From assembly GCA_016786585.1 (NCBI GenBank), contig JAEUUI010000022.1:7826-71825 (forward strand): a stretch of DNA of 64,000 nt. Direction: 5' to 3'. The notes below the pieces were generated by a model, which saw nothing but the letters and a program-made list of their open reading frames with translations, was not told where the DNA came from and searched no databases. This document shows, one piece after another, positions 24,982-42,281 of this stretch. The DNA comes from Cyclobacteriaceae bacterium (GTDB taxonomy: Bacteria; Bacteroidota; Bacteroidia; Cytophagales; Cyclobacteriaceae). Position numbers and translations under genes: made by a program. The number at the start of each line of letters is the position of its first letter. Within the stretch, counting starts at the first letter, position 1.

Positions 24982-25005
24982 ACCAATTTAAACCGTTAAT
25001 AATAC

Positions 25006-25350: not shown

Positions 25351-25759
25351 ATATAAAGTTGGATGCAGCCTTGAGAACCTTCAGGGAATCCGGGATTTTA
25401 TCCGGACTTCATTGAAGAATCATGGCATATCTGAGCTCGAAATCAGTGAAATGGTTTTGGCGCTGGATGAAATGTGCTCCAACCTGATGATTCATGCCCA
25501 CGATTGCAATCCGAACGAGTTGTTTGAACTTGAAATTGTCATTGACCAGAACAAGCCCGTGGTATTTGAAATCATCGATGACGGAAGTGTATTCGATATC
25601 AATCAGTTTAGCGAACCCAGCATGGACAACCTCATCCATGAAAAACGCAAAGGTGGCCTGGGAATCCGGCTGGTAAAATCAATAATGGACTCGGTAGAAT
25701 ACGGCAAATCAGGAAATAAAAACATCTGCCGGCTCGTTAAGAGAGTTCAGGTAAATTAA
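25340..25759 (+). CDS. Anti-sigma regulatory serine kinase (RsbW/SpoIIAB-like HATPase)
   Basis: 139 aa. N-box-like LDEMCSNLMIHA and G-box GGLGIRLV. Overlaps the STAS gene by 11 nt. Confidence 0.8.
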   Translation: MKYKYKVGCSLENLQGIRDFIRTSLKNHGISELEISEMVLALDEMCSNLMIHAHDCNPNELFELEIVIDQNKPVVFEIIDDGSVFDINQFSEPSMDNLIHEKRKGGLGIRLVKSIMDSVEYGKSGNKNICRLVKRVQVN

Positions 25760-25769
25760 TCCTTAATCA

Positions 25770-28560: not shown

Positions 28561-29911
28561 TGTGATTTTCCGGGCCGCTGCCTGTGTACTGTTCATTGGA
28601 CTGGGTCTTGCAGCACAGGCACAGGACTCGGGTGAAGAATCACAGGGGTTTGTGGTCGACAAGATTGTAGCCAAGGTTGACAATTACATCGTACTTAAAT
28701 CGGAAGTAGATAAAGCGTACCTGGACTATGTTACTAACCAGGGAGGCCGCGGAAACGCAGATCAAATTAAATGTCAGTTCCTCGCGATTCTTATCCGTAA
28801 CAAACTCATGCTCGCAAAAGCCGAGATTGACTCCGTAGTGGTTTCGGATGATGAGGTTGACGCCAACACGGAACGAAGAATCGGAATTATTGCTTCTCAA
28901 TACGGTGATGTGAAAGAACTTGAAAAGCAGTTCGGAAAAACCATGGAGCAAATTAAAGGCGATGTGCGGGATATGGTGCGCGAGCAGATGATTGTGAGTG
29001 AAATGGAACGAACAATCACTAAAGATCTTACGGTTACTCCGGCTGAGATTAAACGATTCTACAACAAGATTCCGAAAGACAGTTTGCCGTTTCTGGATGC
29101 GGAAGCCGAGGTAGCCCAGATTGTTCGGGTAGCAAAAGTAAGTCAGCAACAAAAAGAACAGACTAAAGGAGAGTTGATGGCGATTCGCGATGAGTTGTTG
29201 CGCGGTGCCGATTTCGCTACGCTGGCAAAAAAATATTCATCTGATCCGTCTGTGGCTACGAATGGTGGCGATATGGGTTGGTCTGGTCGCGGCCGAATGG
29301 TTCCGCAGTTTGAAGCAATGGCTTTTAAACTGAAGCCTGGCGAAATCTCGATGCCATTTGAAACTGATTTTGGAATTCACATCATGCAATTGGTAGAGCG
29401 CAGGGGTAACGAATACCACTCGAGACATATTCTGATGTCGCCATCACCTTCACCGGAGGATTTAAAAGTTGCTGAGAAGTACCTCGACAGTTTACGTACG
29501 GTGATAAACAGCGGAAAGATTACATTTCAGGCAGCAGCAAAAGAGTATTCCGATGACATGACAACAAAAGGCAATGGTGGCTTCTTTGCCGATGAAGAGG
29601 GCGGTACGCGTATTCCGTATAAAGACCTGGACCCAGTTGTATACTTCGCCATCGACTCCATGAAAACGGGCACCGTGTCAAAGCCCCTGGTTTATCGTAC
29701 CGAAGATCAAAAAGAAGCGGTCCGGATTATCTTTTACAAATCTAAAACCGCTGCACATGAACTGTCGTTGAAAGACGACTGGAACAAACTGCAAAGTGCT
29801 ACGCTGAACGAGAAGAAAAACGGAGTTTTGAATCGATGGTTTAACAAGGTTCGGCAGGATGTTTTTATCAGCATTGACCCGTCCTTTAATTTTTGCGGTA
29901 TTTTAGATTAG
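28523..29911 (+). CDS. SurA-like periplasmic chaperone / parvulin PPIase
   Basis: Signal-like AACVLFIGLGLAAQAQ. SurA N-domain, then a parvulin domain (GGDMGW...FGIHIMQLVERR) and a second degenerate one (GGFFADEEG). Start uncertain (28484, 28508 or 28523). Confidence 0.85.
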   Translation: MPYVKRNLKYLNSVIFRAAACVLFIGLGLAAQAQDSGEESQGFVVDKIVAKVDNYIVLKSEVDKAYLDYVTNQGGRGNADQIKCQFLAILIRNKLMLAKAEIDSVVVSDDEVDANTERRIGIIASQYGDVKELEKQFGKTMEQIKGDVRDMVREQMIVSEMERTITKDLTVTPAEIKRFYNKIPKDSLPFLDAEAEVAQIVRVAKVSQQQKEQTKGELMAIRDELLRGADFATLAKKYSSDPSVATNGGDMGWSGRGRMVPQFEAMAFKLKPGEISMPFETDFGIHIMQLVERRGNEYHSRHILMSPSPSPEDLKVAEKYLDSLRTVINSGKITFQAAAKEYSDDMTTKGNGGFFADEEGGTRIPYKDLDPVVYFAIDSMKTGTVSKPLVYRTEDQKEAVRIIFYKSKTAAHELSLKDDWNKLQSATLNEKKNGVLNRWFNKVRQDVFISIDPSFNFCGILD

Positions 29912-29986
29912 CAACGGCTGCCGCACGTGTAAAAGCTTCTTGCCGGAACCGTGCGTACGCTATTTTCGTAAAAACAAGTTCTTGCC

Positions 29987-30952
29987 ATGAGCAAATATTC
30001 ATCTGATGTAGAGGCGGCCGATGCACTGGCGGGCACCTATAAAAATCTCGCAAAGGAAATTTCGAAAGTGATCGTTGGCCAGGATGAAGTTGTGAGGCTT
30101 GTTCTTACAGCAATCTTTTGCCAGGGACATTCGCTGCTGATCGGGGTACCGGGGCTTGCAAAAACATTGCTTGTTCAAACCATTTCGCGTGCGCTTGATC
30201 TTCAGTTTAAACGAATCCAATTCACACCCGATCTGATGCCTTCCGATATTCTCGGTGCCGAGACGATGGATAAGGAACGAAACTTCAAGTTCATTAAAGG
30301 CCCGGTGTTTGCAAACATCGTACTGGCCGATGAAATTAACCGGACACCTCCTAAGACGCAGGCTGCCTTGCTCGAATCGATGCAGGAATATGCCGTAACG
30401 ATTGCCGGTCAGCGGTACGAGTTGCCAAAACCATTTTTTGTACTGGCTACACAGAACCCGATTGAGCAGGAAGGAACCTATCCGTTGCCGGAAGCGCAGC
30501 TCGACCGGTTTATGTTCAACATCCTGCTTACGTACCCGTCTTTCGCAGAAGAAGTAAGTGTGGTTAAAAACACTACGAACGATGAAGCGAAATCGCTGAG
30601 CACAATCCTGACATCCGAAGATATTATTGCTTATCAACACCTGGTGCGTAAAGTTCCGGTTCCGGATAATGTTATTGAGTATGCCGTTACGCTGGCGGGC
30701 AAAACCCGTCCGCAAACGATCGGTGCATCACAGGTTGCGAACGATTATCTGGAATGGGGTGCAGGGCCGCGTGCTTCACAGTTCCTGGTGCTCGGTGCCA
30801 AGTGCAACGCGTTATTGAACGGCAAGTACTCACCTGATATCGAAGATGTTCAGGCTATTGCCAAGCCGGTATTGCGTCATCGCATTGTCCGCAACTTCAA
30901 AGCGGAAGCAGAAGGAATTAGTGTAGACGAGGTGATCAGCCGATTGGTCTAG
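29987..30952 (+). CDS. MoxR-family AAA+ ATPase
   Basis: 321 aa. Walker A GVPGLAKT, Walker B LADEINR, and the MoxR signature ATQNPIEQEGTYPLPEAQLDRF. Confidence 0.95.
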   Translation: MSKYSSDVEAADALAGTYKNLAKEISKVIVGQDEVVRLVLTAIFCQGHSLLIGVPGLAKTLLVQTISRALDLQFKRIQFTPDLMPSDILGAETMDKERNFKFIKGPVFANIVLADEINRTPPKTQAALLESMQEYAVTIAGQRYELPKPFFVLATQNPIEQEGTYPLPEAQLDRFMFNILLTYPSFAEEVSVVKNTTNDEAKSLSTILTSEDIIAYQHLVRKVPVPDNVIEYAVTLAGKTRPQTIGASQVANDYLEWGAGPRASQFLVLGAKCNALLNGKYSPDIEDVQAIAKPVLRHRIVRNFKAEAEGISVDEVISRLV

Positions 30953-31071
30953 CAGATTTTAGAAATAGTCATTCCTTATTTGCCGAACGTATTGTATCGC
31001 AGATAAACCGGGATGGGAACAATTTGTTATTTTAGACGGCTGGTTTTCCCCGTAATGTTTCCCGTATTGCT

Positions 31072-31869
31072 ATGAGTGACGTTCCCCCTGATCGATCCGA
31101 TGCCAGATCAGCACTAAGATTCAAGCGTTGGAAGAAGTATGCGTTTGAATTCATCATGGTTTTCCTGGCTGTTTTTTTAGGATTTCTGGCAGAGAATGCT
31201 CGCGAGAATTTTGCTGAAAAACAACAAGCCCGCGAACTGGCGAAGAGTTTTTATGAAGAACTAAAAAGTGATTCCCTTGCTGTAGCGTCTAAAATCCAGG
31301 GCCGGCTCAAAAAGGAACATGCTATTGAGTACATGATCGGCTTCTTCCGCGACAGCAGCCTTACATCGTCCTCCAAACCACTATCCGTAAATTTCATTTG
31401 GGCCATTACGGCAAGAACGCCAATTATCTTCACGCCCCGGACGGTTGTTCTGGAGCAACTGAAAAGCTCAGGATCGCTCCGTTACTTCAGGAATAAGGAG
31501 CTTCGCGATTTGATCGGTGACTTGTCTGTTTCGATTGACTACATCAAAACAAGGCAGGACTATGAAAACTCTATTTTCGAAACGTACATGGAGCCCATTA
31601 TGACTAAGCATATGGACTTCAATTTTCAAAGCCAGCTATTCAAAGGTGAGCAGATTTTTGACCGCTTAGATGCGTATGAGTCAGGCAGTGAGTACATTCC
31701 TTTTCACCTATCGCAGGTTGAAAAATTAGACCGGCAAACGCTTATCAATGCGCTTGGGTATTATCATACGAACGGATTGAAATCTACGCGGCTTATTCCT
31801 TTTAAGAAATACGTTGAGGTTAATGCAGCCACACTAAGTGAATTGCGCAGGGAATTCAATTTGGAGTAA
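31072..31869 (+). CDS. Hypothetical single-pass membrane protein
   Basis: 265-aa ORF with one TM segment (FEFIMVFLAVFLGFLA). No recognisable motif. Confidence 0.55.
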   Translation: MSDVPPDRSDARSALRFKRWKKYAFEFIMVFLAVFLGFLAENARENFAEKQQARELAKSFYEELKSDSLAVASKIQGRLKKEHAIEYMIGFFRDSSLTSSSKPLSVNFIWAITARTPIIFTPRTVVLEQLKSSGSLRYFRNKELRDLIGDLSVSIDYIKTRQDYENSIFETYMEPIMTKHMDFNFQSQLFKGEQIFDRLDAYESGSEYIPFHLSQVEKLDRQTLINALGYYHTNGLKSTRLIPFKKYVEVNAATLSELRREFNLE

Positions 31870-31884
31870 CGACTGTCGGTTCTC

Positions 31885-32412
31885 CTAACGCTTAAACATG
31901 GGCAACGGCCTCAAAGGATGGTTGATAAAATTCTGCAAGGCGCGCCTCATTAAAAACCGGTGAAAACCTTTTGTTGGGAACTGGTTTATAAATTCTGTGA
32001 ATTGCCCTCGCAGAAGTTCGAATTTCAAGACACCCAAACTCAGGTCAATCCAGTCGGCTTTACGAAACACTTCAACAGTTGATTCGTACTGCCCGGTGTA
32101 TCGGCTCATCTTATGATGCATGTCAATCATCAATGAAACCTCAGGTATGAAATTAGTTTTCTGATGCTCGACCAGCCATGCAGTTGCGCGTGCAGCGGAT
32201 GGTTCCAGGTAGTCGAATGTGTTGTTCACCCAAATGCCGATGTCGTGAAACGCAGCCGCTACCGCATAGCGATCACGGTGTTCCGGGTTTGTGTCCAACA
32301 AAATACAAAGATGGTAAACGCGGTAAACGTGATTCCGATATTTATCAAAATCTTCTTTCAGTGAACTTCTGTATTCACTCAGAATCTGATGGATGAGAAC
32401 GTTTGTATCCAC
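31885..32412 (-). CDS. HD-domain phosphohydrolase-like protein
   Basis: 175 aa. H...HD signature (VYHLCILL...AAAFHDIG). Confidence 0.7.
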   Translation of the reverse strand: MDTNVLIHQILSEYRSSLKEDFDKYRNHVYRVYHLCILLDTNPEHRDRYAVAAAFHDIGIWVNNTFDYLEPSAARATAWLVEHQKTNFIPEVSLMIDMHHKMSRYTGQYESTVEVFRKADWIDLSLGVLKFELLRGQFTEFINQFPTKGFHRFLMRRALQNFINHPLRPLPMFKR

Positions 32413-32427
32413 ACATTTCTGAATGGA

Positions 32428-33801
32428 TTACATCTTTATGTCCATTACCTTTTTTGTTTTACGGCTTTCTTCTGCCATAAAGCCCATCACATGACTCTCA
32501 ATGGATTGATCGATGGTTGACGTCAGGAGAGCCGGATTGCGTTGCGCAACGGCCTGCACCCAGTTCCCAGCCAAACGCCAGTCGCCACCCCCATGACCGT
32601 CAGTTGTTTCTTTCCACTCTTCAGTTTTACCGCTTTTAAAATTGGTGATGGTGAATGAATTCATATCACCTACAATGTCACCATGACTACCCATTACGCG
32701 TGTTCTTCTGCCACCGTATGAAGTGAATGCTTCCATGCTGAAACTGGCGGTAACGTTGTCGTCAAACAAAATGTTGGTCACGTAATGATCGGGTTGGTCG
32801 TTATCCATCCGGTAAACGCAACGGCCGTAATTGGTTGTCTTGAGTTGTTCAAGAACATAAGCGGCTTGTTTGTCTTTATCTTCCGGTAAATCGAACACAT
32901 AGTTCCATGAACGTTTGCGATAGTAAATATCCAGCGCTGAATAAGGGCAGGAGCCTTCTACCGCGCACCCGTCCGTACAACGTTCTGTGCTGCCAGCCGG
33001 TGCATTCTTTTTTGTAAACCACGACAAGTCCCCAAATGCATGAATGCTTTTGCTTGGCTTCCCGATCATCCAGCGCAGGATGTCGAGATCGTGGCACGAC
33101 TTAGCAAGAATGATAGGAGTGGTTTGCTTGCTGTTGTGCCAATTTCCACGCACATACGAATGACTCATGTGGATGTGTTCAATCGGCTCCATATGCTGAA
33201 TACTAACTACCTCACCGATAGCTTTGCTTTGGATGAGCTCGCGCAGTTTCACAAAGTACGGAGCATACCGGAGTACGTGACACACGGCTACAATGCGGCC
33301 GGTTTTTTTAGCTAACGTGAGAATATCGCGGCACTCTTTTTCACTTGGCGAAATGGGCTTTTCGAGCAGTACATCGTATCCCATCTCCAGCGCCTTCATG
33401 CAGGGGCCATAGTGCAAATTATCAGGCGTTGTGATGATGATGGCATCGGCAAACTTTGGGCGTTTAAAAACATCTTCCCACGTAACAAAACGATTTTCAT
33501 CTTTGATGGCATGTTTGGCAGCATACCGTTCGTTACGAATAGTAATTGGCTCCGCTACGCCAACAATGTCGAGCTTATCCGGATAGGCCAGCGAGTAGCC
33601 TCCGTATACATTTCCCCGGTTTCCGGCTCCGCACACAATCGCGGTAACGGGCTTATCAAGTTTTTTGTAGTTCGTGTTTTCGGGTAACAGAATCGGGTTG
33701 CCATGTTCATCGCGGGCCTCTAACGAAGCGGGTATTGCGGTAACGGCAGCTGATAATCCGAGTAAGCGAAGCGCATCGCGCCGGGAGAATTTGTTTGACA
33801 T
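32428..33801 (-). CDS. Gfo/Idh/MocA-family NAD-dependent oxidoreductase with Tat signal
   Basis: 457 aa. N-terminus MSNKFSRRDALRLLGLSAAVTAIPA. Rossmann GAGNRGNVYG and the EKP motif LLEKPIS. Confidence 0.9.
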   Translation of the reverse strand: MSNKFSRRDALRLLGLSAAVTAIPASLEARDEHGNPILLPENTNYKKLDKPVTAIVCGAGNRGNVYGGYSLAYPDKLDIVGVAEPITIRNERYAAKHAIKDENRFVTWEDVFKRPKFADAIIITTPDNLHYGPCMKALEMGYDVLLEKPISPSEKECRDILTLAKKTGRIVAVCHVLRYAPYFVKLRELIQSKAIGEVVSIQHMEPIEHIHMSHSYVRGNWHNSKQTTPIILAKSCHDLDILRWMIGKPSKSIHAFGDLSWFTKKNAPAGSTERCTDGCAVEGSCPYSALDIYYRKRSWNYVFDLPEDKDKQAAYVLEQLKTTNYGRCVYRMDNDQPDHYVTNILFDDNVTASFSMEAFTSYGGRRTRVMGSHGDIVGDMNSFTITNFKSGKTEEWKETTDGHGGGDWRLAGNWVQAVAQRNPALLTSTIDQSIESHVMGFMAEESRKTKKVMDIKM

Positions 33802-33890
33802 ACGGTCTGGTTCAGAAAACCAAGCTACGAATTAGTGAAGGTGTATCCAAAAAATGCTGATGCAATGCCTATCTTTGGTATAACCCCACA

Positions 33891-34661
33891 ATGTCAGTAT
33901 TAAAATCACACACCGGCCAGCGTACGGTTTTCGTTCAGTCGAAAGGGTGCAGCAATGCTGTTTTCTTTCCGGTACTCGGAGTGATTGCTGTTTCGGGTTT
34001 TGTGATTCATTACTTTTATCCTGATTTAGGTTCAATGCCCTGGGGGCCTATCAAATTTGGCTGCTGGATAATAACGGGCTTTTTTCTGGTTGTGATCTTT
34101 ATCTCGCGCGGCATTCATAATTCCACACCCCACACATTTATTTTTGATCATGAACATGGAATGGTGATTCTGCAATCAGAATCCGCACAGGAAGAGGCAT
34201 ACATTGCATACAACGAAATTGAGAAGCTTGATATCTATGTCGATGAAAGGAAATCTGACGATAGCACAACCAACTATTTTTACGGGTATCTGCAAAAACG
34301 GGATGGAAGTCAGTGGTCTTTTGTCGATTCGTTGAATGACCAAACCGTTCGTCACGCACTTGACTTGCTGCGTGAAAAAATTACACCCGACCGACCGTTT
34401 ATGCCACCGGAAAAAGCCCGGGTGAGTAATAAAATAAAAAAGGAAGAAAGCAGAACCGCCTCTTTGCTGTATTGGACTAACCGTACGGGCATGCGGTCAG
34501 TTCAACTGGCTGTATACTCCATACTGTATACAGGTGTTTTTGGCTTTTGTCTTTATGTAATCTTTGATATAAGCGGAAGGTTTCCGCCAGAGGCGAAAAT
34601 TGCCTGCTTTTTTGCTACGGCAATATTTGGTACGCTGCTGGCTTTTTGCTGGTGCAAGTGA
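33891..34661 (+). CDS. Hypothetical membrane protein (2+2 TM with a central soluble domain)
   Basis: 256-aa ORF with no recognised motif. Its stop overlaps a possible GTG start of the next gene (GTGA at 34658-34661). Confidence 0.6.
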   Translation: MSVLKSHTGQRTVFVQSKGCSNAVFFPVLGVIAVSGFVIHYFYPDLGSMPWGPIKFGCWIITGFFLVVIFISRGIHNSTPHTFIFDHEHGMVILQSESAQEEAYIAYNEIEKLDIYVDERKSDDSTTNYFYGYLQKRDGSQWSFVDSLNDQTVRHALDLLREKITPDRPFMPPEKARVSNKIKKEESRTASLLYWTNRTGMRSVQLAVYSILYTGVFGFCLYVIFDISGRFPPEAKIACFFATAIFGTLLAFCWCK

Positions 34662-34984
34662 TTCGCAGAAATCTTAAAAATCTCTTCTTACGATTTGCAC
34701 TTTCCGTGAGTGAATCTGCCGTGGAGTACTTCGAGTTTAAGAAGGGAAGCGGTGAGCGTAAAGCAAGCGTATCAGTTGCTGTAGAGGATATCGTTGCAAT
34801 CCGGTACGGTTTTCAGGCATGGCAGAATTACAAAAAGCCATTGGAGATCATTAGCCGTCGGGACCCCGACACCGCCGTTGAGTTATACATGGACAGTCTC
34901 AGTCCCATCGAATGCCTGCAGGTAGAAAACTGGTTGCAGGAAACACTCGAAGCTAAAACCGGAAGAAAGTTAAGCGGGGTTTAG
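34646..34984 (+). CDS. Small hypothetical protein whose C-terminal 69 codons are duplicated 2.3 kb downstream
   Basis: 112-aa ORF. Start is TTG at 34646 or, more plausibly, GTG at 34658, which would be translationally coupled. The C-terminal sequence VAVEDIVAIRYGFQAW...KTGRKLSGV recurs at 37091-37300. Confidence 0.55.
   Translation: MLVQVIRRNLKNLFLRFALSVSESAVEYFEFKKGSGERKASVSVAVEDIVAIRYGFQAWQNYKKPLEIISRRDPDTAVELYMDSLSPIECLQVENWLQETLEAKTGRKLSGV
34775..34984 (+). repeat. Direct repeat copy 1 (210 bp, coding 3' end)
   Basis: Hand alignment against 37091-37300 shows equal length, no indels and 13 mismatches. Confidence 0.9.
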
Positions 34985-35231
34985 CATGGCGCTAACCTGC
35001 AGTATCAAGCTTACGATTTAGAATTTTTGATCGAATCATGGCGCACGGAAATAAAACACATTACAATGCGAATATTTGCTATCAAAGTCTGGTAAAATGA
35101 TTCAGAAATGAGACTACGAATCACATTGAACTAGAAACAGGTATAATAATGAATAGTTAATGTGGAAGCTTAGAATAGAGCTCCCACATTAAATAACGTG
35201 TGTTGAATAGGGCAAGAAATTTTCAGAAATT

Positions 35232-36905
35232 CTAAAAATGACTAATCAAAAGATCTATTTGAGAATCAGTAACTCCAGAAGGTTTATTCTGCTTAAGAAT
35301 CTCAGCAAGAGATGATAGTCCGTAGATATGTTTTAACATCTCGGTTTCAATTCCCGGAAGGGTGTAGCCACTCACCTGGTCATCGACCAAGCCTGTTCCA
35401 CGATCTGGGTAGTAGACATTCAACTGATTGATTTTATCGACTATATCAATATAGATTGAAGTGTATTTTTCAGAGCTTTTTTTAGTCCAATATTGGTATG
35501 CATATGAATTTGGCCTACCGGGAGGTGCAGTCGGAAAATAATCTTCTCTTCCGTAATTGAAAATTCCTCTTTCTCTGTATTCAATATTTGTTATGTACCA
35601 CTCAATAGCAGTTGCCCAACTCTCCTGCAATTGAGGAGAAACTTGCCAGTACTGAAGTACCGTGTTCATTTTTATGACGTGACTTGTATGACCGGTTTCG
35701 TGGGCGGTTGTTGAGAAGATTTCGTCCGAAAGAAATTCGGAATTAATGTCAAAGTATCTCCACACTTTGATAATGGGAACAACAACCCAGTTCGTGCCAC
35801 TGGAATTGCCAACACCATCGATCGCAACGTACACGGTTCGTCTCCGGGTGAAAAAAGGGCCAGCTGCCCACCTGAGTGGTCTTTGTAATCCTCCGATATC
35901 TTTGTAGTGATATCTAAAAGCCGATCTGAAAACGTGTCCCGCAAATCGTTGATAGCTGTTATTTAAATCGTAGTTCCAATCTCCAGAAAGTTTAGGACCG
36001 TTGACCCAAAATGTTGTATTTACGATGTTATGTCGTACCGAAAATCGAGTTTGCGCAAACCAAATAGAGTAATTGCATACTTTGCTAACAGAACGACTCA
36101 TGCGAAAATTACCATTAAAGTCTGTGAATGCCGACAATACCGTAAACCAACGCCTAGCCTGGACTCTAACACCCTCCATTCCAATCCACTGTTGCAGACG
36201 AGTGTCAAATATTCTGATGCGCCCACCCGGGGTAAATCTTCTTGAAGCGGTCGATGCTATGCAATCACCACTGTCAATTAGATCTTCGTTATTGCCTGTT
36301 TGAATATAGGCTTGATTTAATAACTTATCCACAAAGCAATCGTCTTTCCCTCCCTTGGTATAATTAAAAGCAGCATCTTCCTCTGGAATATAGAGTTCAT
36401 CCAGAATTTCATATTCAATGCTTTTTTGAAATACATAGTCCGCCTTAACTGCGCTGTACTGATAAGTTGGCACACTGTCGGGCAGGCTTGCGTCATGATA
36501 ATAATCACCATTTACAAGTATTGTACTTTCAATAGGTATGTCTGAAAATACCAAGGTTGAATCAGAGTGTAAGTTTTCATACTCATCCGAATCTTTGGGT
36601 TTAAATTTCACATAGTAATGAGTTGTGCGAACATTTGTGGATGAGTTAGGTTTCACCCCCATCTTTTCCAGGTATTGCCAGGCTGTTATCATGTTCTGAA
36701 CCGTGTAAGGATTTTGTTTATTTTTTCCTAACACAGTGTTAGTTGCCTCCATATAAGGCACGTCACTTTCTATTTTTGCCTGTAAGGTTGAACTTTTTAA
36801 ACCAGCCACATTGTCGTTTGTTAACTCGTCATCCTGACAGCCAACAAAAAGTAGAGTGAACACCGATAAACTCAATGACCACAATCGTAATTTTTTATTC
36901 TTCAT
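35232..36905 (-). CDS. Lipoprotein with HExxH zinc-metalloprotease motif, family not recognised
   Basis: 557 aa. Lipobox LLFVGC. A beta-sandwich-like segment GGRIRIFDTRLQQWIGMEGVRVQARRW. TAHETGHTSH lies near the C-terminal third. About one third G+C in the lines I counted. Confidence 0.75.
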   Translation of the reverse strand: MKNKKLRLWSLSLSVFTLLFVGCQDDELTNDNVAGLKSSTLQAKIESDVPYMEATNTVLGKNKQNPYTVQNMITAWQYLEKMGVKPNSSTNVRTTHYYVKFKPKDSDEYENLHSDSTLVFSDIPIESTILVNGDYYHDASLPDSVPTYQYSAVKADYVFQKSIEYEILDELYIPEEDAAFNYTKGGKDDCFVDKLLNQAYIQTGNNEDLIDSGDCIASTASRRFTPGGRIRIFDTRLQQWIGMEGVRVQARRWFTVLSAFTDFNGNFRMSRSVSKVCNYSIWFAQTRFSVRHNIVNTTFWVNGPKLSGDWNYDLNNSYQRFAGHVFRSAFRYHYKDIGGLQRPLRWAAGPFFTRRRTVYVAIDGVGNSSGTNWVVVPIIKVWRYFDINSEFLSDEIFSTTAHETGHTSHVIKMNTVLQYWQVSPQLQESWATAIEWYITNIEYRERGIFNYGREDYFPTAPPGRPNSYAYQYWTKKSSEKYTSIYIDIVDKINQLNVYYPDRGTGLVDDQVSGYTLPGIETEMLKHIYGLSSLAEILKQNKPSGVTDSQIDLLISHF

Positions 36906-36943
36906 AAGATTTGTGTTTTATGAAGCTACTTAGTGTAGTCAAT

Positions 36944-36963
36944 TTTTAATGCATGCATTAAAA
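36944..36963. promoter_or_regulatory. Perfect 20-bp palindrome TTTTAATGCATGCATTAAAA upstream of the HExxH lipoprotein gene (candidate operator)
   Basis: Read directly from the sequence. The centre lies between 36953 and 36954, about 40-60 nt upstream of the ATG at 36905 (minus strand). Confidence 0.3.
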
Positions 36964-37090
36964 TACCGCGATTTTTCTCGAGTAAGTTCTCAGTCATTTT
37001 TGTGCAAATAGTTATCTGAAGACAATGAGAACCTAAGGCATTATCTTGAAACAGGTTGATTTTTAACTCTCCTTTAGAGAATACAGAGGG

Positions 37091-37300
37091 GTTGCTGTGG
37101 AGGATATCGTTGCAATCCGGTATGGTTTTCAGGCATGGGAGAATTACAAAAAACCATTGGAGATCATTAGCCGTCGGGACCCCGATACCCCCGTTGAGTT
37201 GTACATGGACAGTCTCAGTCCCATTGAATGTCTGCAGGTAGAAAACTGGTTGCAGGAGACACTCGAAGCTAAAACCGGGAGAAAGTTAAGTGGGGTGTAG
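37091..37300 (+). repeat. Direct repeat copy 2 (210 bp)
   Basis: About 94% identical to 34775-34984 by hand count (13 differences in 210 nt). Confidence 0.9.
37097..37300 (+). pseudogene. 5'-truncated paralogous copy of the 34646-34984 gene (67 codons, GTG-initiated ORF retained)
   Basis: The translation MEDIVAIRYGFQAWENYKKPLEIISRRDPDTPVELYMDSLSPIECLQVENWLQETLEAKTGRKLSGV has only 2 residue changes against the full gene. It lacks the N-terminal 40 or so codons. Whether it is expressed is unknown. Confidence 0.5.
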
Positions 37301-37314
37301 TCAAAACAAGAAGT

Positions 37315-37599
37315 TCATTTATTTCCCGCTCTCCGTTTCGAGCATACGATTATTGTTCCTACCCCGAGCAGTAAAACGGCCGGAACAAATGCAAACCAGA
37401 ACTCTCCCGAGCCGATGTCTGTGGTAAAAAATGCAATGAGCAGGAGGATGATTCCAAAAAAGAACCAGACTTTTTTTCTATTGCTTTTGTAAAGAGCTTT
37501 ATACTGATAGTCAAGAAGTTCTTTTTCAGTTTTATTCATTGAAATCAGGACTTTTATCATTTCATGGTTCACTAAAATTAGACTTTTCCCATGTACCAT
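37315..37599 (-). CDS. Small two-TM membrane protein, hypothetical
   Basis: 94-aa ORF; a more likely start is the internal MNKTEKELL at about 37539. Two hydrophobic helices. No motif. Confidence 0.45.
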   Translation of the reverse strand: MVHGKSLILVNHEMIKVLISMNKTEKELLDYQYKALYKSNRKKVWFFFGIILLLIAFFTTDIGSGEFWFAFVPAVLLLGVGTIIVCSKRRAGNK

Positions 37600-37710
37600 T
37601 CTTAGTTCCAGTGGCCTGCCTTCATATATGACAGGAGTTACAAACGGAAGTTTGCGAAATTTGAACCCGCTGAATCACATCGCCTCCACAAGTTATCAGG
37701 CTAATTATGT

Positions 37711-37941
37711 GATGTTGTTAAAATTCGCAACACGCAAACAACTATCAGCAAGCACATAGCAATTATCTGCATCGCGATTGAAATTATCAGCAAGGACTAT
37801 TAAATAATCTGCAATACAATAATTAACTATAGCAACGCCAGTGAAAATATCGGCAACGGGGTTGTTAAATTCTGCAACGGTTGTGTCAATTTCTGCAACG
37901 ACACTGTAAATATCTGCAACACTTTTGCTAATTATTGCAAG
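37711..37941. repeat. Array of 11 tandem 21-bp units with a conserved 3' half (A/T-rich, then ATCTGCAAC-like) and a variable 5' half
   Basis: GCAA(C/G/T)/GCATC cores start at 37727, 37748, 37769, 37790, 37811, 37832, 37853, 37874, 37895, 37916 and 37937. That is exactly 21 bp apart, eleven times, and the region is non-coding. Confidence 0.9.
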
Positions 37942-38070
37942 CGGGAAGGGGAGATTTCGCGTTTGGGAGGGGTTTTTGGACCTTCCTAAAAATACTTGAC
38001 ACTTTTGGGGCTGTTTACTAGAAGTGGTTTACAGGGCTAGCGGTTATTCCTGATTCAATATCAGCTGTGA

Positions 38071-38130
38071 CCAAACGTGATTTGAAATCAACTAAACTGC
38101 AAAGTTACACCGAATCCAGCCATTGATTAT
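38071..38130 (-). repeat. Reiterated intergenic module, copy X (contains TAACTTTG -7 box on the minus strand at 38100-38107)
   Basis: About 84% identical by hand alignment (51/61 columns) to 39856-39916. It lies immediately 3' of the 38155-38790 gene. Confidence 0.7.
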
Positions 38131-38154
38131 GGGCATTGCTGCGCGCTGGTTTTT

Positions 38155-38790
38155 TTAACTGGTCGTGTAATAAGTAATCAATAATTCATTACCGCGTCTC
38201 CACTTAATCCAGCCACTCTTTATTTCAGTTTTATTTTGCCCTTCGTCACAATAGTTGGTCGTGAAAATTTCAATCCAGTCTCCTTTTAGAGATTTTACTT
38301 GAAAACAATCTCGTCCTTCATATTTTATTTCTTCAGCCGTATCAGCAGGTTGTATTCTTATCTTTTGTTTATGCTCAGCAAGCCTGTCTACCGCGAACAT
38401 TTGTTTAAGGTACTCTTCCCAGGTCAAGAGTTTTGTCGTCTTATTCTTTTTAATCCAGTAAGTCTGTCCGTTGTCGTTGTTCACAATAAGTTCTAACCAT
38501 TCACCATTTGTCGATTTACACCTGAAGTTAACTTGTGAATAGTCCAGCCATAGTAATTCTGGTTTTAACCAAGTCTGTTCAGTTTTCAGATTCTTTATGT
38601 TCCAACTGTTTATCGCTTTGTCGTCAAAGAACTCAATTCTCTTTGAGTACACCGTGTCAGCCGGCTTAGTGTAAAAGTCGATTATTGTCTTGTCGTCAAA
38701 TTCTATTTTTACAATCCCTGTCCCAAGTGTCACTTGCCCGTGCGTCTGGGTTAGAATTGTCATTAATAGCATGGTGGTCCAAATTCTCAT
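38155..38790 (-). CDS. Hypothetical secreted protein
   Basis: 211 aa with signal peptide MRIWTTMLLMTILTQTHGQ. W/K/E-rich with no motif. AT-rich. Confidence 0.65.
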   Translation of the reverse strand: MRIWTTMLLMTILTQTHGQVTLGTGIVKIEFDDKTIIDFYTKPADTVYSKRIEFFDDKAINSWNIKNLKTEQTWLKPELLWLDYSQVNFRCKSTNGEWLELIVNNDNGQTYWIKKNKTTKLLTWEEYLKQMFAVDRLAEHKQKIRIQPADTAEEIKYEGRDCFQVKSLKGDWIEIFTTNYCDEGQNKTEIKSGWIKWRRGNELLITYYTTS

Positions 38791-38854
38791 AAGAAACTTG
38801 TGTACAACATTAGGCTAGAAGCCGTTGCCGGAATGTTTGGCGTTACTAAGTCGG

Positions 38855-38947
38855 AACTGTTCCACGTGACCTAGCGTGAACCGAAGATACAAATTAAAAT
38901 TAGTTGAAAACCCGGCAATGACTTTAGCCAGCGCCGTGGGCTGCGGC
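38855..38947 (-). repeat. Reiterated intergenic module, diverged copy Z
   Basis: Shares blocks with copies X and Y: CTGTTCCACGTGACC, and GAAAACCCGGCAATGACTTTA against GAACCCCGCCATTGATTATG. It is more diverged, and the alignment was done by eye. Confidence 0.45.
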
Positions 38948-38958
38948 CTACTCCGAAA

Positions 38959-39549
38959 TTATTTGCCAACCGTTTCTTTTCTCTTTAGTCGTCCGTTGCC
39001 CGCTTTGTCGTAATGGTGAATCTCCTTTTTCCGTCCGTCCGGATGATAGAAGATTAATTGTCCCACGGGATTACCTTTCTTAAAATATCCTTCTAGTCGC
39101 TTATTTCCATTGTCAAAATAATCCACGTTGTACCCTTCACATAATTGGTCGCAACAAGAGTATCCACAGTCTCCCGCACTTTGTGGTGGTAGAACACAAT
39201 TTATAACATAACAGTCCATTATAGCGGACCTTGTTAACGTGTCGTAATTTTTTCCTTGAGATATTGTAATAACCTTTACCGAGTCGACCAAACGATAAAG
39301 CGTGTAGTCAAAAACCTTCAACTTATAAATTCCAGGATCTGGCAAATAAATTGTCCCAAGAGTATCTGAAATCTGAAACATCTTTCCATCCTTAACTAAA
39401 TGAACGAGTAATTCATTTTCATAAGTCGAATTGCATGGATTAAAAGTTACTACGTTTAGTGTGATTCCTTGTCCATGAGTCAAATCTGTCCAGAAGTTGA
39501 AAAATAATATGATTGCTAATACTCTCATGTCTTTTTGGCCGTTGCCCAC
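38959..39549 (-). CDS. Secreted protein with C-terminal MORN-variant / YwqK-like repeats
   Basis: Likely start at MRVLAIILFFNFW (39528). The C-terminus YFDNGNKRLEGYFKKGNPVGQLIFYHPDGRKKEIHHYDKAGNG resembles YwqK-family repeats. Confidence 0.6.
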   Translation of the reverse strand: MGNGQKDMRVLAIILFFNFWTDLTHGQGITLNVVTFNPCNSTYENELLVHLVKDGKMFQISDTLGTIYLPDPGIYKLKVFDYTLYRLVDSVKVITISQGKNYDTLTRSAIMDCYVINCVLPPQSAGDCGYSCCDQLCEGYNVDYFDNGNKRLEGYFKKGNPVGQLIFYHPDGRKKEIHHYDKAGNGRLKRKETVGK

Positions 39550-39855
39550 AACGTTGGTTTTTATGCAGTGTGCGGAGTAGGAGGGCTTAAAAATGAAGCG
39601 CAGCGGAATGTTTTACTCTACCAGTTGCGGCCAACCAGCTACTATAACAAAAATTGAAATATCTAATTTAGAGTTGTCCTAAAAATGGGGAGCTTACAAT
39701 CCGTGACTGCAGTCTCTTCACCCCAGATAGATTTATTGATTATTTCTTTTTTAAAATCAGTCGCCGTTTTCATTGGTACTTAGTTGTTGATATGATTACC
39801 GCTAACGCTTGTGCATAAGCAGTGGCGGGTCTTCGAAGCGCTTCACTGCCCCACG

Positions 39856-39916
39856 ATACCAAACTTATTTTGAAAAACTAAACTACAAATTTACACTGAA
39901 CCCCGCCATTGATTAT
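39856..39916 (-). repeat. Reiterated intergenic module, copy Y (contains TAAATTTG -7 box on the minus strand at 39886-39893)
   Basis: See copy X. It lies between the 40094-41281 and 38959-39549 genes. Confidence 0.7.
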
Positions 39917-40093
39917 GCACTTTGTTGCCGGCTGTTGGCCTTTGTCCATTCAATTGCATGTTGTCCTTCAGTCCAATTCGTATTACTTTCTACTTCTGAA
40001 TTGTCGGCTTACTCTAAGTTTAGTGTGTTGGCCGCTCCGTTTTCTTTTCTCCTGTTAAATTTTTGAATATTCAAGAAAGTGAATTTCAAAGAT

Positions 40094-41281
40094 TTATCGA
40101 ATCCAGGATACACTCAAGGTATTAAAGTCATATATCTTATTTTGGTCATTCAACAGAAACTGCCAGAGAATGGAAACATTTTCAAATTTCATAACATAGC
40201 TGTAATCAAAAGATTCTTGAAATTTCTCTTTATGTATCAATTCCAATGACTTTAAGTCCCCAAATTTTCCATAGATATTCTTAATATTATCTTCTGATTT
40301 TTTTAAATCAAGAGCAAAGTTTTCTGTAAGATCAGTGTATTTCAATTTTCCATTTGCTACTTCACTAAATAAATTTTGAATTTTGGCTGTTATTTCATGT
40401 TCTTGGTTAGGCAATGGCTTATACATTGTCAAAATATGTCTGTGCATATTTAGTGTCAATGGCATTACTGTTTGGTGTATTTGATTAGAAATATTTGATG
40501 TCTCATAGTAATGTCCCCCCTTTTTCAATTCTTCAAAAAGATTAAGTTTTGTATTTTCATTTGGATTAGCGAAGTTATAAAATACGATTTCTCCAGTTTT
40601 TAAATCATACGAGTTTGAGTATTTAGTGCCGCCATCTCCAGGAACTACACATTGCCTTAGAATTTCGGCACCTTCATTTATACTTGGGGTATTTCCCTCT
40701 TTATATAATCTATCAAAAGTGGCTTCACCAAAGCCCGAACCCCTACTTTTAATTGTGGTATCAAAATATAGATTGCCATTTTTTGAGCCAATAATTACGG
40801 ACATTCCTGATTTGTCAGCTATAAATAATGTAGTCCTTGCGAATGCTGGTTCGCTGTATTTCTGGTAAAATTTTATAGCTTCCTGCACAGTCTTGCATCT
40901 CTCAAGCATCCATTGGGCCGTGTTTACATTCAAATGAATCTTTTTTTTGTCAGGCACATAGTTGGAGTCAACGGTGTAACTATCTCCATCAACAGTAACC
41001 CACTCAAAAGCTAACCCTTTTGTATTTAGTCCACCTTGAGCTTCTCCATCATTAAAACCCACATAAGCACTACCGAAATGACCTTTCCCTTCTGGAACAA
41101 ACCAAATCCTTGTTTTAGGGTTAGTAAAATCTTCATTGTTAAAAAAGTAAGTATGCTTACCATCTGTCAATACAAAAACAGTACAAGCGTTTGAAGAAAG
41201 TACTCCCCCTAAGAATATTATTAGAAATAAAATTCCTGAGACAGAAAATGAATATGGAAAACGAAACATGATTTTGTCCAT
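40094..41281 (-). CDS. Secreted Ntn-hydrolase-like protein (choloylglycine hydrolase / linear amide C-N hydrolase type)
   Basis: 395 aa. The signal sequence ends in SSNA, followed by CTVFVLTDGKHTYFFNNEDF, so a Cys would be the N-terminal nucleophile after cleavage. AT-rich. Confidence 0.65.
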   Translation of the reverse strand: MDKIMFRFPYSFSVSGILFLIIFLGGVLSSNACTVFVLTDGKHTYFFNNEDFTNPKTRIWFVPEGKGHFGSAYVGFNDGEAQGGLNTKGLAFEWVTVDGDSYTVDSNYVPDKKKIHLNVNTAQWMLERCKTVQEAIKFYQKYSEPAFARTTLFIADKSGMSVIIGSKNGNLYFDTTIKSRGSGFGEATFDRLYKEGNTPSINEGAEILRQCVVPGDGGTKYSNSYDLKTGEIVFYNFANPNENTKLNLFEELKKGGHYYETSNISNQIHQTVMPLTLNMHRHILTMYKPLPNQEHEITAKIQNLFSEVANGKLKYTDLTENFALDLKKSEDNIKNIYGKFGDLKSLELIHKEKFQESFDYSYVMKFENVSILWQFLLNDQNKIYDFNTLSVSWIR

Positions 41282-41543
41282 TTGCTTTAGTTTTTAATAA
41301 TAAATATTGTGGTTTGCCTTATGTTACACCCTGATAACGGTCATCTTTCGAACAGGTTTTCCACGAGTACAATTTTTTAAATCTCAATTTAGTTTATGTA
41401 CGTCACAAGAGGAAAAGTCAATCTTTCGTTTTTCCATTGTCAACCGAAAACTTAGCCGTCTGGTCCGTCACTGTCCACGAAGGCGACCAATTGCCGGCAA
41501 CGTCCGGATATAAGCCACACTATGGCCTATATTTCTTTACTAA

Positions 41544-42281
41544 TTACCCCAACCTCTTCGCTACCTCATCCCAATTCACAACGTTCCACCAGTTGGTAAT
41601 GTATTCGTTGCGTTTGTTTTGGTATTTCAAATAGTAGGCGTGTTCCCAAACGTCCAGACCCAAAAGTGGTGTACCTTTTACTTCAGCAGTATCCATCAGC
41701 GGGTTATCCTGGTTGGGTGTAGAGGTGATCTGTAGCTTGCCGCTCGCATCTTTTACCAGCCACGCCCAGCCTGAACCGAACCGACCCATCGCAGCGGCAT
41801 TAAATTGTTCCATAAACTTAGGCACGGAACCGAACGATCCATCAAGCGCAGCAACAATTTTCCCATACGGAGTTCCGCTTGCGCCCGGCTTCATCACCTG
41901 CCAGAAGAAATTATGATTCCATGCACCACCGGCATTGTTGCGAACTTTGGCTGACAGCTTCGAAGCATTGTCAAAAAATTCTTTTTCCGAAGAGTACGTG
42001 AGTTTCTCTGCCACAATCGCTTCGTTCACGTTTTTAATGTACGCAGCATGATGTTTTGTATAATGAATGTCCATCGTGAGGGCATCAATGCTCGGTTCGA
42101 GTGCATTCTTCTCGTACGGCAACGGTATCTGTTTGAATTCAAATGCGGCTGCGGTTCCTGCTTTACCTAAGTTGCCGGCAGGCTGTGCAAATGCGTTCTC
42201 TAAAATGAACGATGAGCCTACGGCTGCGCCAACGGATGCTTTGAGCGAATCGCTCATAAATTTTCTGCGTGATGTTTTCAT
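41544..42281 (-). CDS. sodA: Fe/Mn-family superoxide dismutase with N-terminal Tat signal
   Basis: 245 aa. N-terminus MKTSRRKFMSDSLKASVGAAVGSSFILENAFA, then the canonical HYTKHHAAYIKNVN and GLDVWEHAYYLKYQNKR. Confidence 0.93.
   Translation of the reverse strand: MKTSRRKFMSDSLKASVGAAVGSSFILENAFAQPAGNLGKAGTAAAFEFKQIPLPYEKNALEPSIDALTMDIHYTKHHAAYIKNVNEAIVAEKLTYSSEKEFFDNASKLSAKVRNNAGGAWNHNFFWQVMKPGASGTPYGKIVAALDGSFGSVPKFMEQFNAAAMGRFGSGWAWLVKDASGKLQITSTPNQDNPLMDTAEVKGTPLLGLDVWEHAYYLKYQNKRNEYITNWWNVVNWDEVAKRLG

What the first reader, a model, noticed from the sequence alone, without database searches (positions are those of the whole stretch)
37091..37300. Substitution pattern between the two repeat copies is almost purely synonymous
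I aligned the two copies codon by codon. Of the 13 differences, 11 are third-position synonymous changes: gta/gtg, tac/tat, aag/aaa, gac/gat, tta/ttg, atc/att, tgc/tgt, gaa/gag, gga/ggg, agc/agt and gtt/gtg. Only 2 change an amino acid (Q to E and A to P). No stop or frameshift has accumulated in the truncated copy, which retains a GTG-initiated 67-codon ORF.

A dead relic of a local duplication should accumulate changes at all codon positions. This pattern has two likely explanations:
- The two tails diverged as orthologues in different lineages and were then juxtaposed by horizontal transfer.
- The truncated copy is still translated and under selection.
Basis: seen in the sequence. Interest (0 to 1): 0.6.

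Follow-up and report, generated by a model that had tools for sequence, protein, structure and literature searches.

The report
Gene tail duplicated by cassette insertion
The two copies of a gene's last 69 codons differ almost only at silent sites because they are two naturally diverged versions of one working gene end, set side by side when a one-gene cassette was recombined into a gene-swapping hotspot; this is ordinary bacterial recombination, not evidence for a new small protein.

Summary
Copies 34775-34984 and 37091-37300 differ at 13 of 210 bases: 11 synonymous third-position changes and 2 replacements. dN/dS is 0.04, with p between 2e-6 and 2e-4 depending on the transition bias assumed.

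The copies bracket a 2106-bp insert carrying one HExxH lipoprotein gene. A same-species relative (97.6% identical) and four more distant relatives have the empty site. There the tail is followed directly by window 37301 onwards.

The copies are not each other's closest relatives. Copy 2 differs from the single-copy relative at 7 bases, copy 1 at 10, and the two copies from each other at 13. Their dS of 0.32 is about 3.5 times the strain background of about 0.09. The silent differences therefore arose while each tail belonged to an intact gene in a separate lineage.

The orphan is probably not a gene:
- It starts inside a beta-strand of a PH-like domain.
- It has no stand-alone homologues among 1.84 billion representative proteins.

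Unexpectedly, the "full-length" gene is itself frameshifted at about 34639. Both amino-acid changes lie in that copy, at otherwise invariant positions.

Interest is low: this is a clean example of a known process.

The parts
33891..34661 (+). 5' part of geneX. This is a roughly 364-aa membrane protein of unknown function with two [2 TM + PH-like] modules. Here it ends after 256 codons because of a frameshift.
   Evidence: ORF list. Intact orthologues of 362-364 aa exist in G002/L005 and L009. The exact 256-aa product is found on 19 independent contigs.
34638..34640 (+). 1-nt deletion (a missing G) relative to L009. It shifts geneX out of frame.
   Evidence: MAFFT alignment of the window against L009 shows a gap at 34639. 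The translations are compared.
34646..34984 (+). 3' part of geneX, read in the shifted frame. It is a 112-codon ORF and contains copy 1.
   Evidence: ORF list. It is 84% identical at the amino-acid level to the C-terminus of the 362-aa G002 protein.
34775..34984 (+). Repeat copy 1: the last 69 codons plus the stop of geneX. It carries the only two amino-acid changes (E to Q, P to A), at positions invariant in six orthologues.
34985..37090 (.). 2106-bp insert that is absent from relatives. It is a self-contained single-gene cassette with G+C of about 0.39, against about 0.46 in the core.
   Evidence: The site is empty in L009, L010, L011, L039, L032 and L031.
35232..36905 (-). Gene for a 557-aa lipoprotein with an HExxH motif. 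It is a putative gluzincin-like metallopeptidase from an uncharacterised family.
   Evidence: ORF. It has 131 homologues, the nearest at 75% identity. C23, H402, E403, H406 and H409 are invariant. The AF2 model has pLDDT 86 but no significant PDB match. There is no Pfam or NCBIfam hit.
35157..35192 (-). Terminator-like hairpin with a 14-bp stem, just downstream of the lipoprotein gene and inside the insert.
37091..37300 (+). Repeat copy 2: the orphan geneX tail in the ancestral position. Its amino-acid sequence is identical to the tail of the intact L009 gene. It contains the 67-codon ORF 37097-37300.
   Evidence: Its downstream flank is syntenic with L009, L039, L032 and L031.
37315..37599 (-). 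Small 2-TM protein gene of 74 or 94 aa. It converges on the geneX tail and is the ancestral downstream neighbour of geneX.
   Evidence: ORF. A 74-aa gene is called in L009, L032 and L031. The exact 74-aa product is found on 6 contigs.
37628..37696 (+). Relic of the 3' end of a DUF6973 gene. That gene is intact in L027 and L031.
   Evidence: blastn identity is 82.6% to L027 and 85.5% to L031.

Best explanation
The two 210-nt copies are two alleles of the conserved 3' end of one gene, geneX. GeneX is a roughly 364-aa membrane protein with two PH-like modules. The alleles diverged under purifying selection while each belonged to an intact gene in a separate lineage or haplotype of a Cyclobacteriaceae population.

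They were placed side by side in the G000 lineage when a 2.1-kb single-gene cassette entered a hypervariable locus between the GFO/IDH/MocA oxidoreductase gene and the superoxide dismutase gene. The cassette carries the HExxH lipoprotein gene with its own promoter region and terminator.

The most likely mechanism is homology-facilitated illegitimate recombination (HFIR). A homologous crossover occurred in or upstream of geneX. One illegitimate join occurred at 37090|37091, inside codon region 296 of the resident geneX. That leaves the resident tail as an orphan behind the cassette. Similarity ends exactly at the stop codon because the two haplotypes share geneX but not what follows it.

A Campbell-type single crossover of a circle carrying a tail plus the cassette is a sub-variant I cannot exclude.

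On this reading the synonymous bias records past selection on full-length genes, not present selection on the 67-codon ORF. It is shown that:
- the repeat and its substitution pattern are real;
- relatives have the empty site;
- the distances are ordered as described;
- a breakpoint lies inside the tail in another lineage.

The mechanism (HFIR) and the identity of the immigrant copy are inferred. Copy 1 with the cassette is weakly favoured as the immigrant.
For: (1) Empty site. L009, L010 and L011 are 97.6% identical to the window over 11 kb. Their intact geneX tail is followed directly by window 37301-38045. L039, L032 and L031 have the same arrangement.

(2) The copies are not sister sequences. 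The differences are 13 between the copies, 10 between copy 1 and L009, and 7 between copy 2 and L009. Copy 2 has no amino-acid change against L009.

(3) dS between the copies is 0.316. Pooled pS between G000 and L009 in 14 flanking genes is 0.083-0.088. P(at least 11 synonymous differences at the background rate) is 7e-4.

(4) L009 and L039 cannot be deletion products of copy 1 x copy 2. A deletion product would carry copy 1's left end and copy 2's right end. Both relatives are copy-2-like at the leftmost variable site and copy-1-like at site 12.

(5) The tail is a proven recombination junction elsewhere. L031 differs from copy 1 at 42 of the first 150 bases but at only 1 of the last 60. Its downstream 287 nt are about 94% identical to window 37301-37587.

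(6) The locus is a swapping hotspot.
- G002 and L029 have an extra SMI1 gene.
- L027 and L028 have the lipoprotein orthologue next to the GFO gene and no geneX.
- A second replaced block lies at 38046-41501.
- Divergence steps from 11% to 1-2% inside the SOD gene.

(7) The pattern of mostly silent differences is the norm for all allele pairs of this tail. L009 against L039 has 6 synonymous and 2 non-synonymous changes. Copy 2 against L009 has 7 and 0.

(8) Orphaned 3' ends left behind by HFIR-type cassette insertion are described for T6SS and Rhs loci (PMC5361080, read).
Against: - No donor haplotype was found. I looked for geneX followed directly by the lipoprotein gene, or the lipoprotein upstream region continuing past 37090 into other sequence. 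The next-closest lipoprotein is only 75% identical and lies in a different arrangement.
- Which copy is the immigrant rests on small counts. Copy 1 against L009 gives 10 of 210, p = 0.03 against the background rate. Copy 2 gives 7 of 210, p = 0.24.
- The apparent mosaic, with L009 copy-2-like on the left and copy-1-like on the right, is not significant once the breakpoint is left free (permutation p = 0.09-0.12). HFIR and Campbell integration therefore cannot be told apart.
Confidence: 0.8

Rival explanations
1. Site-specific integrative element of the e14/phage 21 icd type. On this reading, an element that targets the 3' end of geneX carries its own replacement tail, and copies 1 and 2 are attL and attR. 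The present 2.1 kb would be a remnant, or a cassette moved by an integrase acting in trans.
For: The geometry is the same. The gene is completed by one tail and the other tail is left as an orphan at the far end. The tails differ mostly at silent sites. Identical stretches of up to 32 nt between the variable sites could serve as a crossover core.
Against: - The insert has room for only one gene, with its terminator and promoter region. It contains no integrase, excisionase or transposase.
- The accessory genes out to 41.5 kb gave no mobility-family hit in Pfam or NCBIfam: four (37315-37599, 38155-38790, 38959-39549, 40094-41281) were scanned against both libraries and none is a recombinase. 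ORFs under 40 aa were not examined.
- A scan of viral contigs with the tail alignment found nothing.
- No second occurrence of the cassette at another geneX was found.
Confidence: 0.07
2. Old in-situ duplication. On this reading, the tail, or a whole geneX, was duplicated locally long ago. Both copies were kept under purifying selection, and relatives lost one copy and the cassette.
For: Copies 1 and 2 share T at 34897/37213 where L009 and L039 have C. They also share T at 34903/37219 against L009. This could reflect common descent or gene conversion. The lipoprotein orthologue sits at the same locus in L027 and L028, so the gene might be old here.
Against: - It requires independent losses in L009/L039, L032, L031 and the G002 group.
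- The single-copy tails do not have the copy-1-left/copy-2-right composition that a repeat-mediated deletion must give.
- Copy 2 is closer to L009 than to copy 1.
- The shared sites are homoplasic across the other alleles. L032 has T at the first and L039 has T at the second.
Confidence: 0.06
3. The orphan 67-codon ORF (37097-37300) is translated into a small protein that is itself under purifying selection.
For: The ORF is open and starts with GTG. It has no replacement relative to the functional L009 tail: 7 synonymous and 0 non-synonymous differences. A sigma-70-like match on the + strand at 36936-36964 could read into it. In this lineage geneX is frameshifted, so a spare intact tail is conceivable as a substitute.
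Against: - In the AF2 model the orphan begins inside strand 290-297 of the C-terminal PH-like sandwich. It lacks about half of its strands, so it is not a folding unit.
- An exhaustive HMMER search of 1.84 billion representatives finds only two relatives. They are 308 and 364 aa long, and both match at their C-termini.
- A word-indexed search with the 112-aa tail ORF (candidates of about 62-196 aa) found none.
- No gene with this product is on record in 153 billion called genes.
- The GTG is the ancestral Val codon.
- The silent-site pattern is fully accounted for by divergence before the juxtaposition.
- The promoter-like match count is below the shuffle expectation (7 against 9.2).
Confidence: 0.04

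Closest known systems
Homology-facilitated illegitimate recombination (HFIR) and the displacement of gene 3' ends in Rhs, CDI and T6SS effector-immunity loci. HFIR: de Vries & Wackernagel 2002; Prudhomme et al. 2002. Displacement: Jackson et al. 2009; Kirchberger et al. 2017, PMC5361080.
   Same: - A conserved coding stretch acts as the homology anchor.
- Non-homologous cargo is joined by one illegitimate junction.
- The resident 3' end is pushed downstream and stays as an orphan carrying a piece of the conserved sequence.
- The locus is a hotspot with alternative cassettes among close relatives.
   Different: - In the known systems the conserved anchor is the 5'/core part and the variable 3' tip is displaced. 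Here the duplicated piece is the conserved tail itself.
- The cargo is an unrelated, oppositely oriented lipoprotein gene. It is not a new tip-immunity pair.
- No toxin or immunity function is shown for geneX.
- The mechanism is inferred. It was not demonstrated.
Prophage e14 and phage 21 integration into the 3' end of icd in Escherichia coli (Hill et al. 1989; Wang, Whittam & Selander 1997; from my own knowledge).
   Same: An inserted element supplies an alternative 3' end that keeps the gene intact. The original 3' end remains as a pseudo-tail on the other side. The two tails differ mainly at synonymous sites because they evolved as functional ends in different lineages.
   Different: Those are 21-kb and larger prophages with their own integrase and a defined att core. 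Here the insert is 2.1 kb, has one gene and has no recombinase.
Campbell-type integration of a circular DNA by a single homologous crossover.
   Same: It yields an insert flanked by direct repeats of the homologous segment, each repeat a hybrid of donor and recipient alleles. The clustering of copy-1-private variants on the left and copy-2-private variants on the right is what this would give if the resident allele was the divergent one.
   Different: The clustering is not statistically significant (p about 0.1). It also requires a pre-existing circle carrying exactly the tail plus the cassette, for which there is no evidence.

Membership tests
Orphaned gene tail left by recombinational cassette insertion (HFIR/displacement type) | Close relatives carry the uninterrupted (empty) site. 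| tested here: met
   In L009, L010 and L011 (97.6% identity), L039, L032 and L031, the tail is followed directly by the homologue of window 37301 onwards.
Orphaned gene tail left by recombinational cassette insertion (HFIR/displacement type) | The repeat copies are diverged alleles, not products of a recent local copy. Their distance exceeds the strain divergence, and each is at least as close to a single-copy allele as to the other copy. | tested here: met
   The differences are 13 between the copies, against 10 and 7 to L009. dS is 0.316 against a background pS of about 0.085, p = 7e-4.
Orphaned gene tail left by recombinational cassette insertion (HFIR/displacement type) | One boundary is a natural limit of homology and the other is an abrupt novel junction. 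| tested here: met
   Similarity stops at the stop codon on the right. It starts abruptly at 34775/37091 inside the coding sequence on the left.
Orphaned gene tail left by recombinational cassette insertion (HFIR/displacement type) | A donor haplotype with the cargo next to the anchor gene can be identified. | tested here: not met
   The only exact matches to the cargo are the same arrangement. The nearest homologue, at 75% identity, lies next to the GFO gene without geneX. The donor was not sampled.
Site-specific integrative element with a replacement 3' end (e14/icd type) | The element encodes, or is accompanied by, an integrase or recombinase. | tested here: not met
   The insert has a single ORF of at least 120 aa, with no recombinase domain. 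Four neighbouring accessory ORFs between 37315 and 41281 also gave no recombinase hit in Pfam or NCBIfam.
Site-specific integrative element with a replacement 3' end (e14/icd type) | The gene is completed by the element-borne tail, and the native tail is orphaned at the other end. | tested here: met
   Copy 1 completes the geneX reading frame up to the stop, and copy 2 is orphaned. The gene is now frameshifted further upstream for a separate reason.
Functional small ORF under purifying selection | Stand-alone homologues of similar length exist in other genomes. | tested here: not met
   There are two hits in 1.84 billion representatives, both 308-364 aa with C-terminal matches. The word-indexed search with the 112-aa tail ORF found no short homologue. 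There is no exact gene call.
Functional small ORF under purifying selection | The ORF corresponds to an autonomous folding unit. | tested here: not met
   In the AF2 model of the intact orthologue, the orphan starts within strand 290-297 of a sandwich spanning 267-357. Overall pLDDT is 66, and 70-88 in this region.
Functional small ORF under purifying selection | The ORF is transcribed and translated. | not testable with these tools
No Ribo-seq or proteomics data are available.
In-situ tandem or segmental duplication | The copies are each other's closest relatives, and the single-copy state in relatives is explicable by repeat-mediated deletion. | tested here: not met
   Copy 2 is closer to L009 than to copy 1. 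L009 and L039 lack the copy-1-left/copy-2-right composition at the outermost variable sites.

The most novel reading that the evidence does not exclude
The conserved geneX tail is not just an accidental crossover point. It would be a recurrent homology anchor that lets this Cyclobacteriaceae hotspot capture and exchange single-gene secreted-protein cassettes without any integrase. This would be analogous to Rhs/CDI/T6SS tip displacement, but would use a gene's 3' end. Orphan tails would be retained because they keep the anchor, or the terminator for the convergent small 2-TM gene, available for the next exchange. A weaker variant is that the orphan tail is expressed as a spare after geneX was frameshifted.
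Probability: 0.08. Interest if true: 0.45.

Novelty: new member of a known kind. Interest (0 to 1): 0.2.

Why it matters
This is a clean worked case of a common trap. A truncated gene copy with dN/dS far below 1 looks like a selected small ORF. Here the silent-site signature was laid down before the two copies were brought together. A relative with the empty site, and a comparison of the distances, settle the question.

It also documents three other things:
- a gene-swapping hotspot in an environmental Cyclobacteriaceae population, with breakpoints resolved to a few tens of bases;
- a very narrow membrane-protein family with twin PH-like modules (geneX);
- an uncharacterised HExxH lipoprotein family with a confident predicted fold and no solved relative.

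None of this changes current understanding of recombination.

Tried and rejected
- **Assembly artefact or strain chimera.** Rejected. Independent assemblies from at least four studies reproduce every junction at 100% identity.
- **Transition bias as the cause of the synonymous excess.** Rejected. p is at most 1.6e-4 even at kappa 20.
- **L009 and L039 as deletion derivatives of a duplicated ancestor.** Rejected from the composition at the outermost variable sites.
- **Mosaic test for a crossover inside the repeat.** A maximum chi-square test with permutation gave p = 0.09-0.12. This is suggestive only and is not used as evidence.
- **Family assignment.** Pfam and NCBIfam gave nothing for geneX, the orphan or the lipoprotein. 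A PDB sequence search with the lipoprotein gave no hit.
- **Other copies of the tail.** The search for homologous proteins with the 112-aa tail ORF found nothing. A scan of viral contigs found nothing. The genome-contig scan found only the G002 MAG. The metagenome scan added one locus, L039.
- **A donor haplotype for the cassette.** Not found.
- **Reads and RNA evidence.** No read-level or expression check could be made.
- **Exact-protein look-ups.** The look-ups for the 67-aa orphan and for the 93-aa form of the small neighbour gene found no record. The 74-aa form of the neighbour did.

Full report
**1.

The repeat finder reports one long direct repeat in the region: 34775-34984 and 37091-37300. 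It is 210 nt, 94% identical, ungapped, with a spacing of 2316 bp.

Outside these limits the two places are unrelated, with 13-19 matches per 60 bases. Similarity stops exactly at the TAG stop codon.

There are 11 synonymous third-position differences and 2 replacements, Q/E and A/P.

Nei-Gojobori estimates give S = 42.7, N = 161.3, dS = 0.316, dN = 0.0125 and omega = 0.04. Binomial p is 1.7e-6.

Ten of the 13 changes are transitions, so I recomputed the neutral expectation with transition bias. P(at least 11 of 13 synonymous) stays at or below 1.6e-4 up to kappa = 20.

The 67-codon ORF 37097-37300 exists. Its GTG is the ancestral valine codon, which is also GTG in relatives.

**2. The structure is real and recurs in independent assemblies**

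The window lies in a 4.19-Mb, 30-contig genome, G000. A congener is a Cyclobacteriaceae MAG.

Contigs assembled independently from other runs match the window at 100% identity:
- L033-L038 and L036 carry geneX into copy 1. L036 crosses the junction between copy 1 and the insert.
- L024, seen in 15 samples, spans the 3' 145 nt of copy 1, the whole insert and the first 93 nt of copy 2.
- L041 spans the 5' end of the lipoprotein gene, all of copy 2 and 870 nt beyond it.

Only these two copies of the tail exist in the genome.

**3. What the repeated piece belongs to**

In the congener G002, the tail is the end of a single 362-aa ORF.

A word-indexed protein search found six clusters of this protein, geneX, of 361-364 aa. 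One of them, P0003, is 364 aa and about 97% identical to the window's version.

In the window, geneX is split into a 256-aa ORF (33891-34661) and a 112-codon ORF (34646-34984). The cause is a 1-nt deletion at about 34639 relative to L009.

The exact truncated 256-aa product is on 19 contigs from several studies. The frameshift is therefore a fixed feature of this lineage, not an error.

GeneX has no Pfam or NCBIfam family. An AF2 model of P0003 has pLDDT 66, rising to 70-88 in the C-terminal domain. It shows two modules, each with two TM helices, a beta-sandwich and a closing helix.

The best PDB matches are PH-domain proteins. EROS (8kei_D) scores E = 8e-4. The tandem PH domains of Rtt106 and the bacterial PH domains 3hsa and 3dcx match weakly.

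The repeat starts at residue 296, inside strand 290-297 of the second sandwich.

**4. What lies between the copies**

The interval 34985-37090 holds one gene, 35232-36905 on the minus strand. It encodes a 557-aa lipoprotein with an HExxH motif. Within the insert it has its own terminator-like hairpin (35157-35192) and 185 bp of upstream sequence.

The family has 131 homologues, mostly in Bacteroidota metagenomes. C23, H402, E403, H406 and H409 are invariant.

The fold is predicted with confidence (pLDDT 86). No solved structure matches at E < 1e-3, and there is only a weak M4 vibriolysin match.

G+C of the insert is about 0.39, against about 0.46 in the core flanks.

There is no recombinase in the insert. 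The four neighbouring accessory ORFs scanned between 37315 and 41281 also gave no recombinase hit.

**5. Relatives have the empty site**

L009, L010 and L011 are Logan contigs carrying P0003. They align to window 23890-34984 at 97.6% identity. They then continue from the tail straight into window 37301-38045.

L039 (about 95% identical), L032 (83%) and L031 (74% in the geneX body) have the same adjacency. In each, the tail is followed by the small convergent 2-TM gene.

The single-copy arrangement is therefore ancestral. One repeat unit plus the 2106 bp is an insertion peculiar to the G000 lineage.

L009 and L039 cannot be secondary deletions by copy 1 x copy 2 recombination. Such a product must carry copy 1's left end and copy 2's right end. 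Both relatives are copy-2-like at the leftmost variable site and copy-1-like at site 12.

**6. The copies are alleles, not daughters of a local duplication**

| Comparison (210 nt) | Differences |
|---|---|
| copy 1 vs copy 2 | 13 |
| copy 1 vs L009 | 10 |
| copy 2 vs L009 | 7 |
| L009 vs L039 | 8 |
| copy 1 vs L039 | 12 |
| copy 2 vs L039 | 13 |

The dS between the copies (0.316) is about 3.5 times the pooled synonymous divergence of 14 flanking genes between G000 and L009. That pooled pS is 0.083-0.088. P(at least 11 synonymous differences at that rate) is 7e-4.

The insertion is younger than the split between G000 and L009, yet the copies are older than that split. They must therefore have diverged elsewhere, as ends of intact genes. 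That is why the differences are silent.

All allele pairs of this tail show the same bias. Copy 2 against L009 has 7 synonymous and 0 non-synonymous changes. L009 against L039 has 6 and 2.

**7. The tail is a recombination junction in another lineage too**

L031 differs from copy 1 at 42 of the first 150 bases of the tail but at only 1 of the last 60. Its next 287 nt are about 94% identical to window 37301-37587. This is an inter-species crossover inside the tail's most conserved stretch.

The wider locus is a swapping hotspot:
- G002 and L029 have an extra SMI1/KNR4 gene.
- L027 and L028 have the lipoprotein orthologue (75% aa) directly beside the GFO gene. They have no geneX, and an intact DUF6973 gene follows.
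- A relic of the 3' end of that DUF6973 gene survives at window 37628-37696.
- Window 38046-41501 replaces 780 bp of L009.
- Divergence from L009 drops from 11% to 1-2% at about 42000, inside the SOD gene.

**8. Mechanism**

The simplest account needs one homologous exchange and one illegitimate join, which is homology-facilitated illegitimate recombination. Two haplotypes share geneX but differ downstream of it, which explains why similarity ends at the stop codon. The only novel junction is 37090|37091.

This process, and the resulting orphaned 3' ends, are discussed for T6SS effector-immunity and Rhs loci in PMC5361080.

Which copy came in is not settled:
- Copy 2 and its right flank sit at background divergence from L009: 18 differences in 630 nt and 7 of 210, p = 0.24.
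- Copy 1 and the adjacent geneX body are somewhat more diverged: 10 of 210, p = 0.03, and 27 differences over 34390-34984.
- This weakly favours copy 1 plus the cassette as the immigrant.

The private variants of copy 1 cluster on the left and those of copy 2 on the right. That would fit a Campbell-type single crossover. With a free breakpoint, however, the clustering is not significant (p = 0.09-0.12).

**9. Is the orphan a gene?**

Nothing requires it to be:
- It starts mid-strand in a PH-like sandwich.
- An exhaustive HMMER pass over 1.84 billion representatives finds only two relatives. Both are 308-364 aa long and match at their C-termini.
- A word-indexed search with the 112-aa tail ORF found no short homologue.
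- Its product is not on record as a called gene.

**10. An unexpected twist**

Both amino-acid replacements lie in copy 1, the copy attached to the now frameshifted gene. They are E to Q and P to A, at columns invariant in the six other orthologues.

The orphan copy 2 is identical in protein sequence to the tail of the intact L009 gene.

So the copy showing possible decay is the 'full-length' one, not the truncated one.

**11. Verdict**

This is an instance of a known process in an undescribed locus. Interest is low (0.2). Confidence in the main explanation is 0.8.

Noticed in passing
window 34638-34640: GeneX is frameshifted by a 1-nt deletion relative to the intact 364-aa orthologue. The truncated 256-aa product recurs on 19 contigs from several studies, so the pseudogene or split gene is fixed in this lineage.
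   Followed up: yes
window 41502-42001 (SOD gene 41544-42281, minus strand): Divergence from L009 steps sharply from 11% (56 of 500 nt) to 1-2% at about 42000, inside the superoxide dismutase gene. SOD dS is 0.355 against about 0.09 for its neighbours. Together with the non-homologous block 38046-41501 (780 bp in L009), this marks a second, separate recombination tract.
   Followed up: partly
window 37739-37920: Tandem array of 21-bp units (TRF: 2.7 plus 4.2 copies, about 70% matches) in the non-coding gap after the small 2-TM gene. It is conserved at 88-94% in L031 and L039.
   Followed up: no
window 38090-38148 and 39876-39934: A 59-nt intergenic module is repeated at 81% identity between accessory cassettes. 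It also matches L029 (12066-12151), from a different species.
   Followed up: no
window 37628-37696: A 69-nt relic of the 3' end of a DUF6973 gene, which is intact in L027/L028 and L031. It shows that a DUF6973 gene once lay to the right of this site.
   Followed up: partly
L031 677-1174: An inter-species recombination breakpoint lies inside the geneX tail. The first 150 nt are 28% different from the window. The last 60 nt and the next 287 nt are 94-98% identical to it.
   Followed up: yes
window 35232-36905: The HExxH lipoprotein family (131 homologues, mostly Bacteroidota) has a confident AF2 model (pLDDT 86) but no significant solved-structure match and no Pfam or NCBIfam model. It contains a transthyretin/CarboxypepD_reg-like sandwich and shows a weak M4 vibriolysin similarity.
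   Followed up: partly
L027 1-2295 and L028 1-1947: In the species that carries the lipoprotein orthologue next to the GFO gene, a Multi_ubiq / Prok-E2 / ThiF operon lies about 4 kb away (with a BubE gene called in L027 only). This is a bacterial ubiquitin-like system. The hotspot therefore also hosts defence-type cargo.
   Followed up: no
window 33891-34984 (geneX family): GeneX is a very narrow family. There are six 90%-identity clusters in 5.8 billion proteins. Only two 50%-identity representatives match the tail. It is found in 3 of 33 genomes of the genus.
   Followed up: partly
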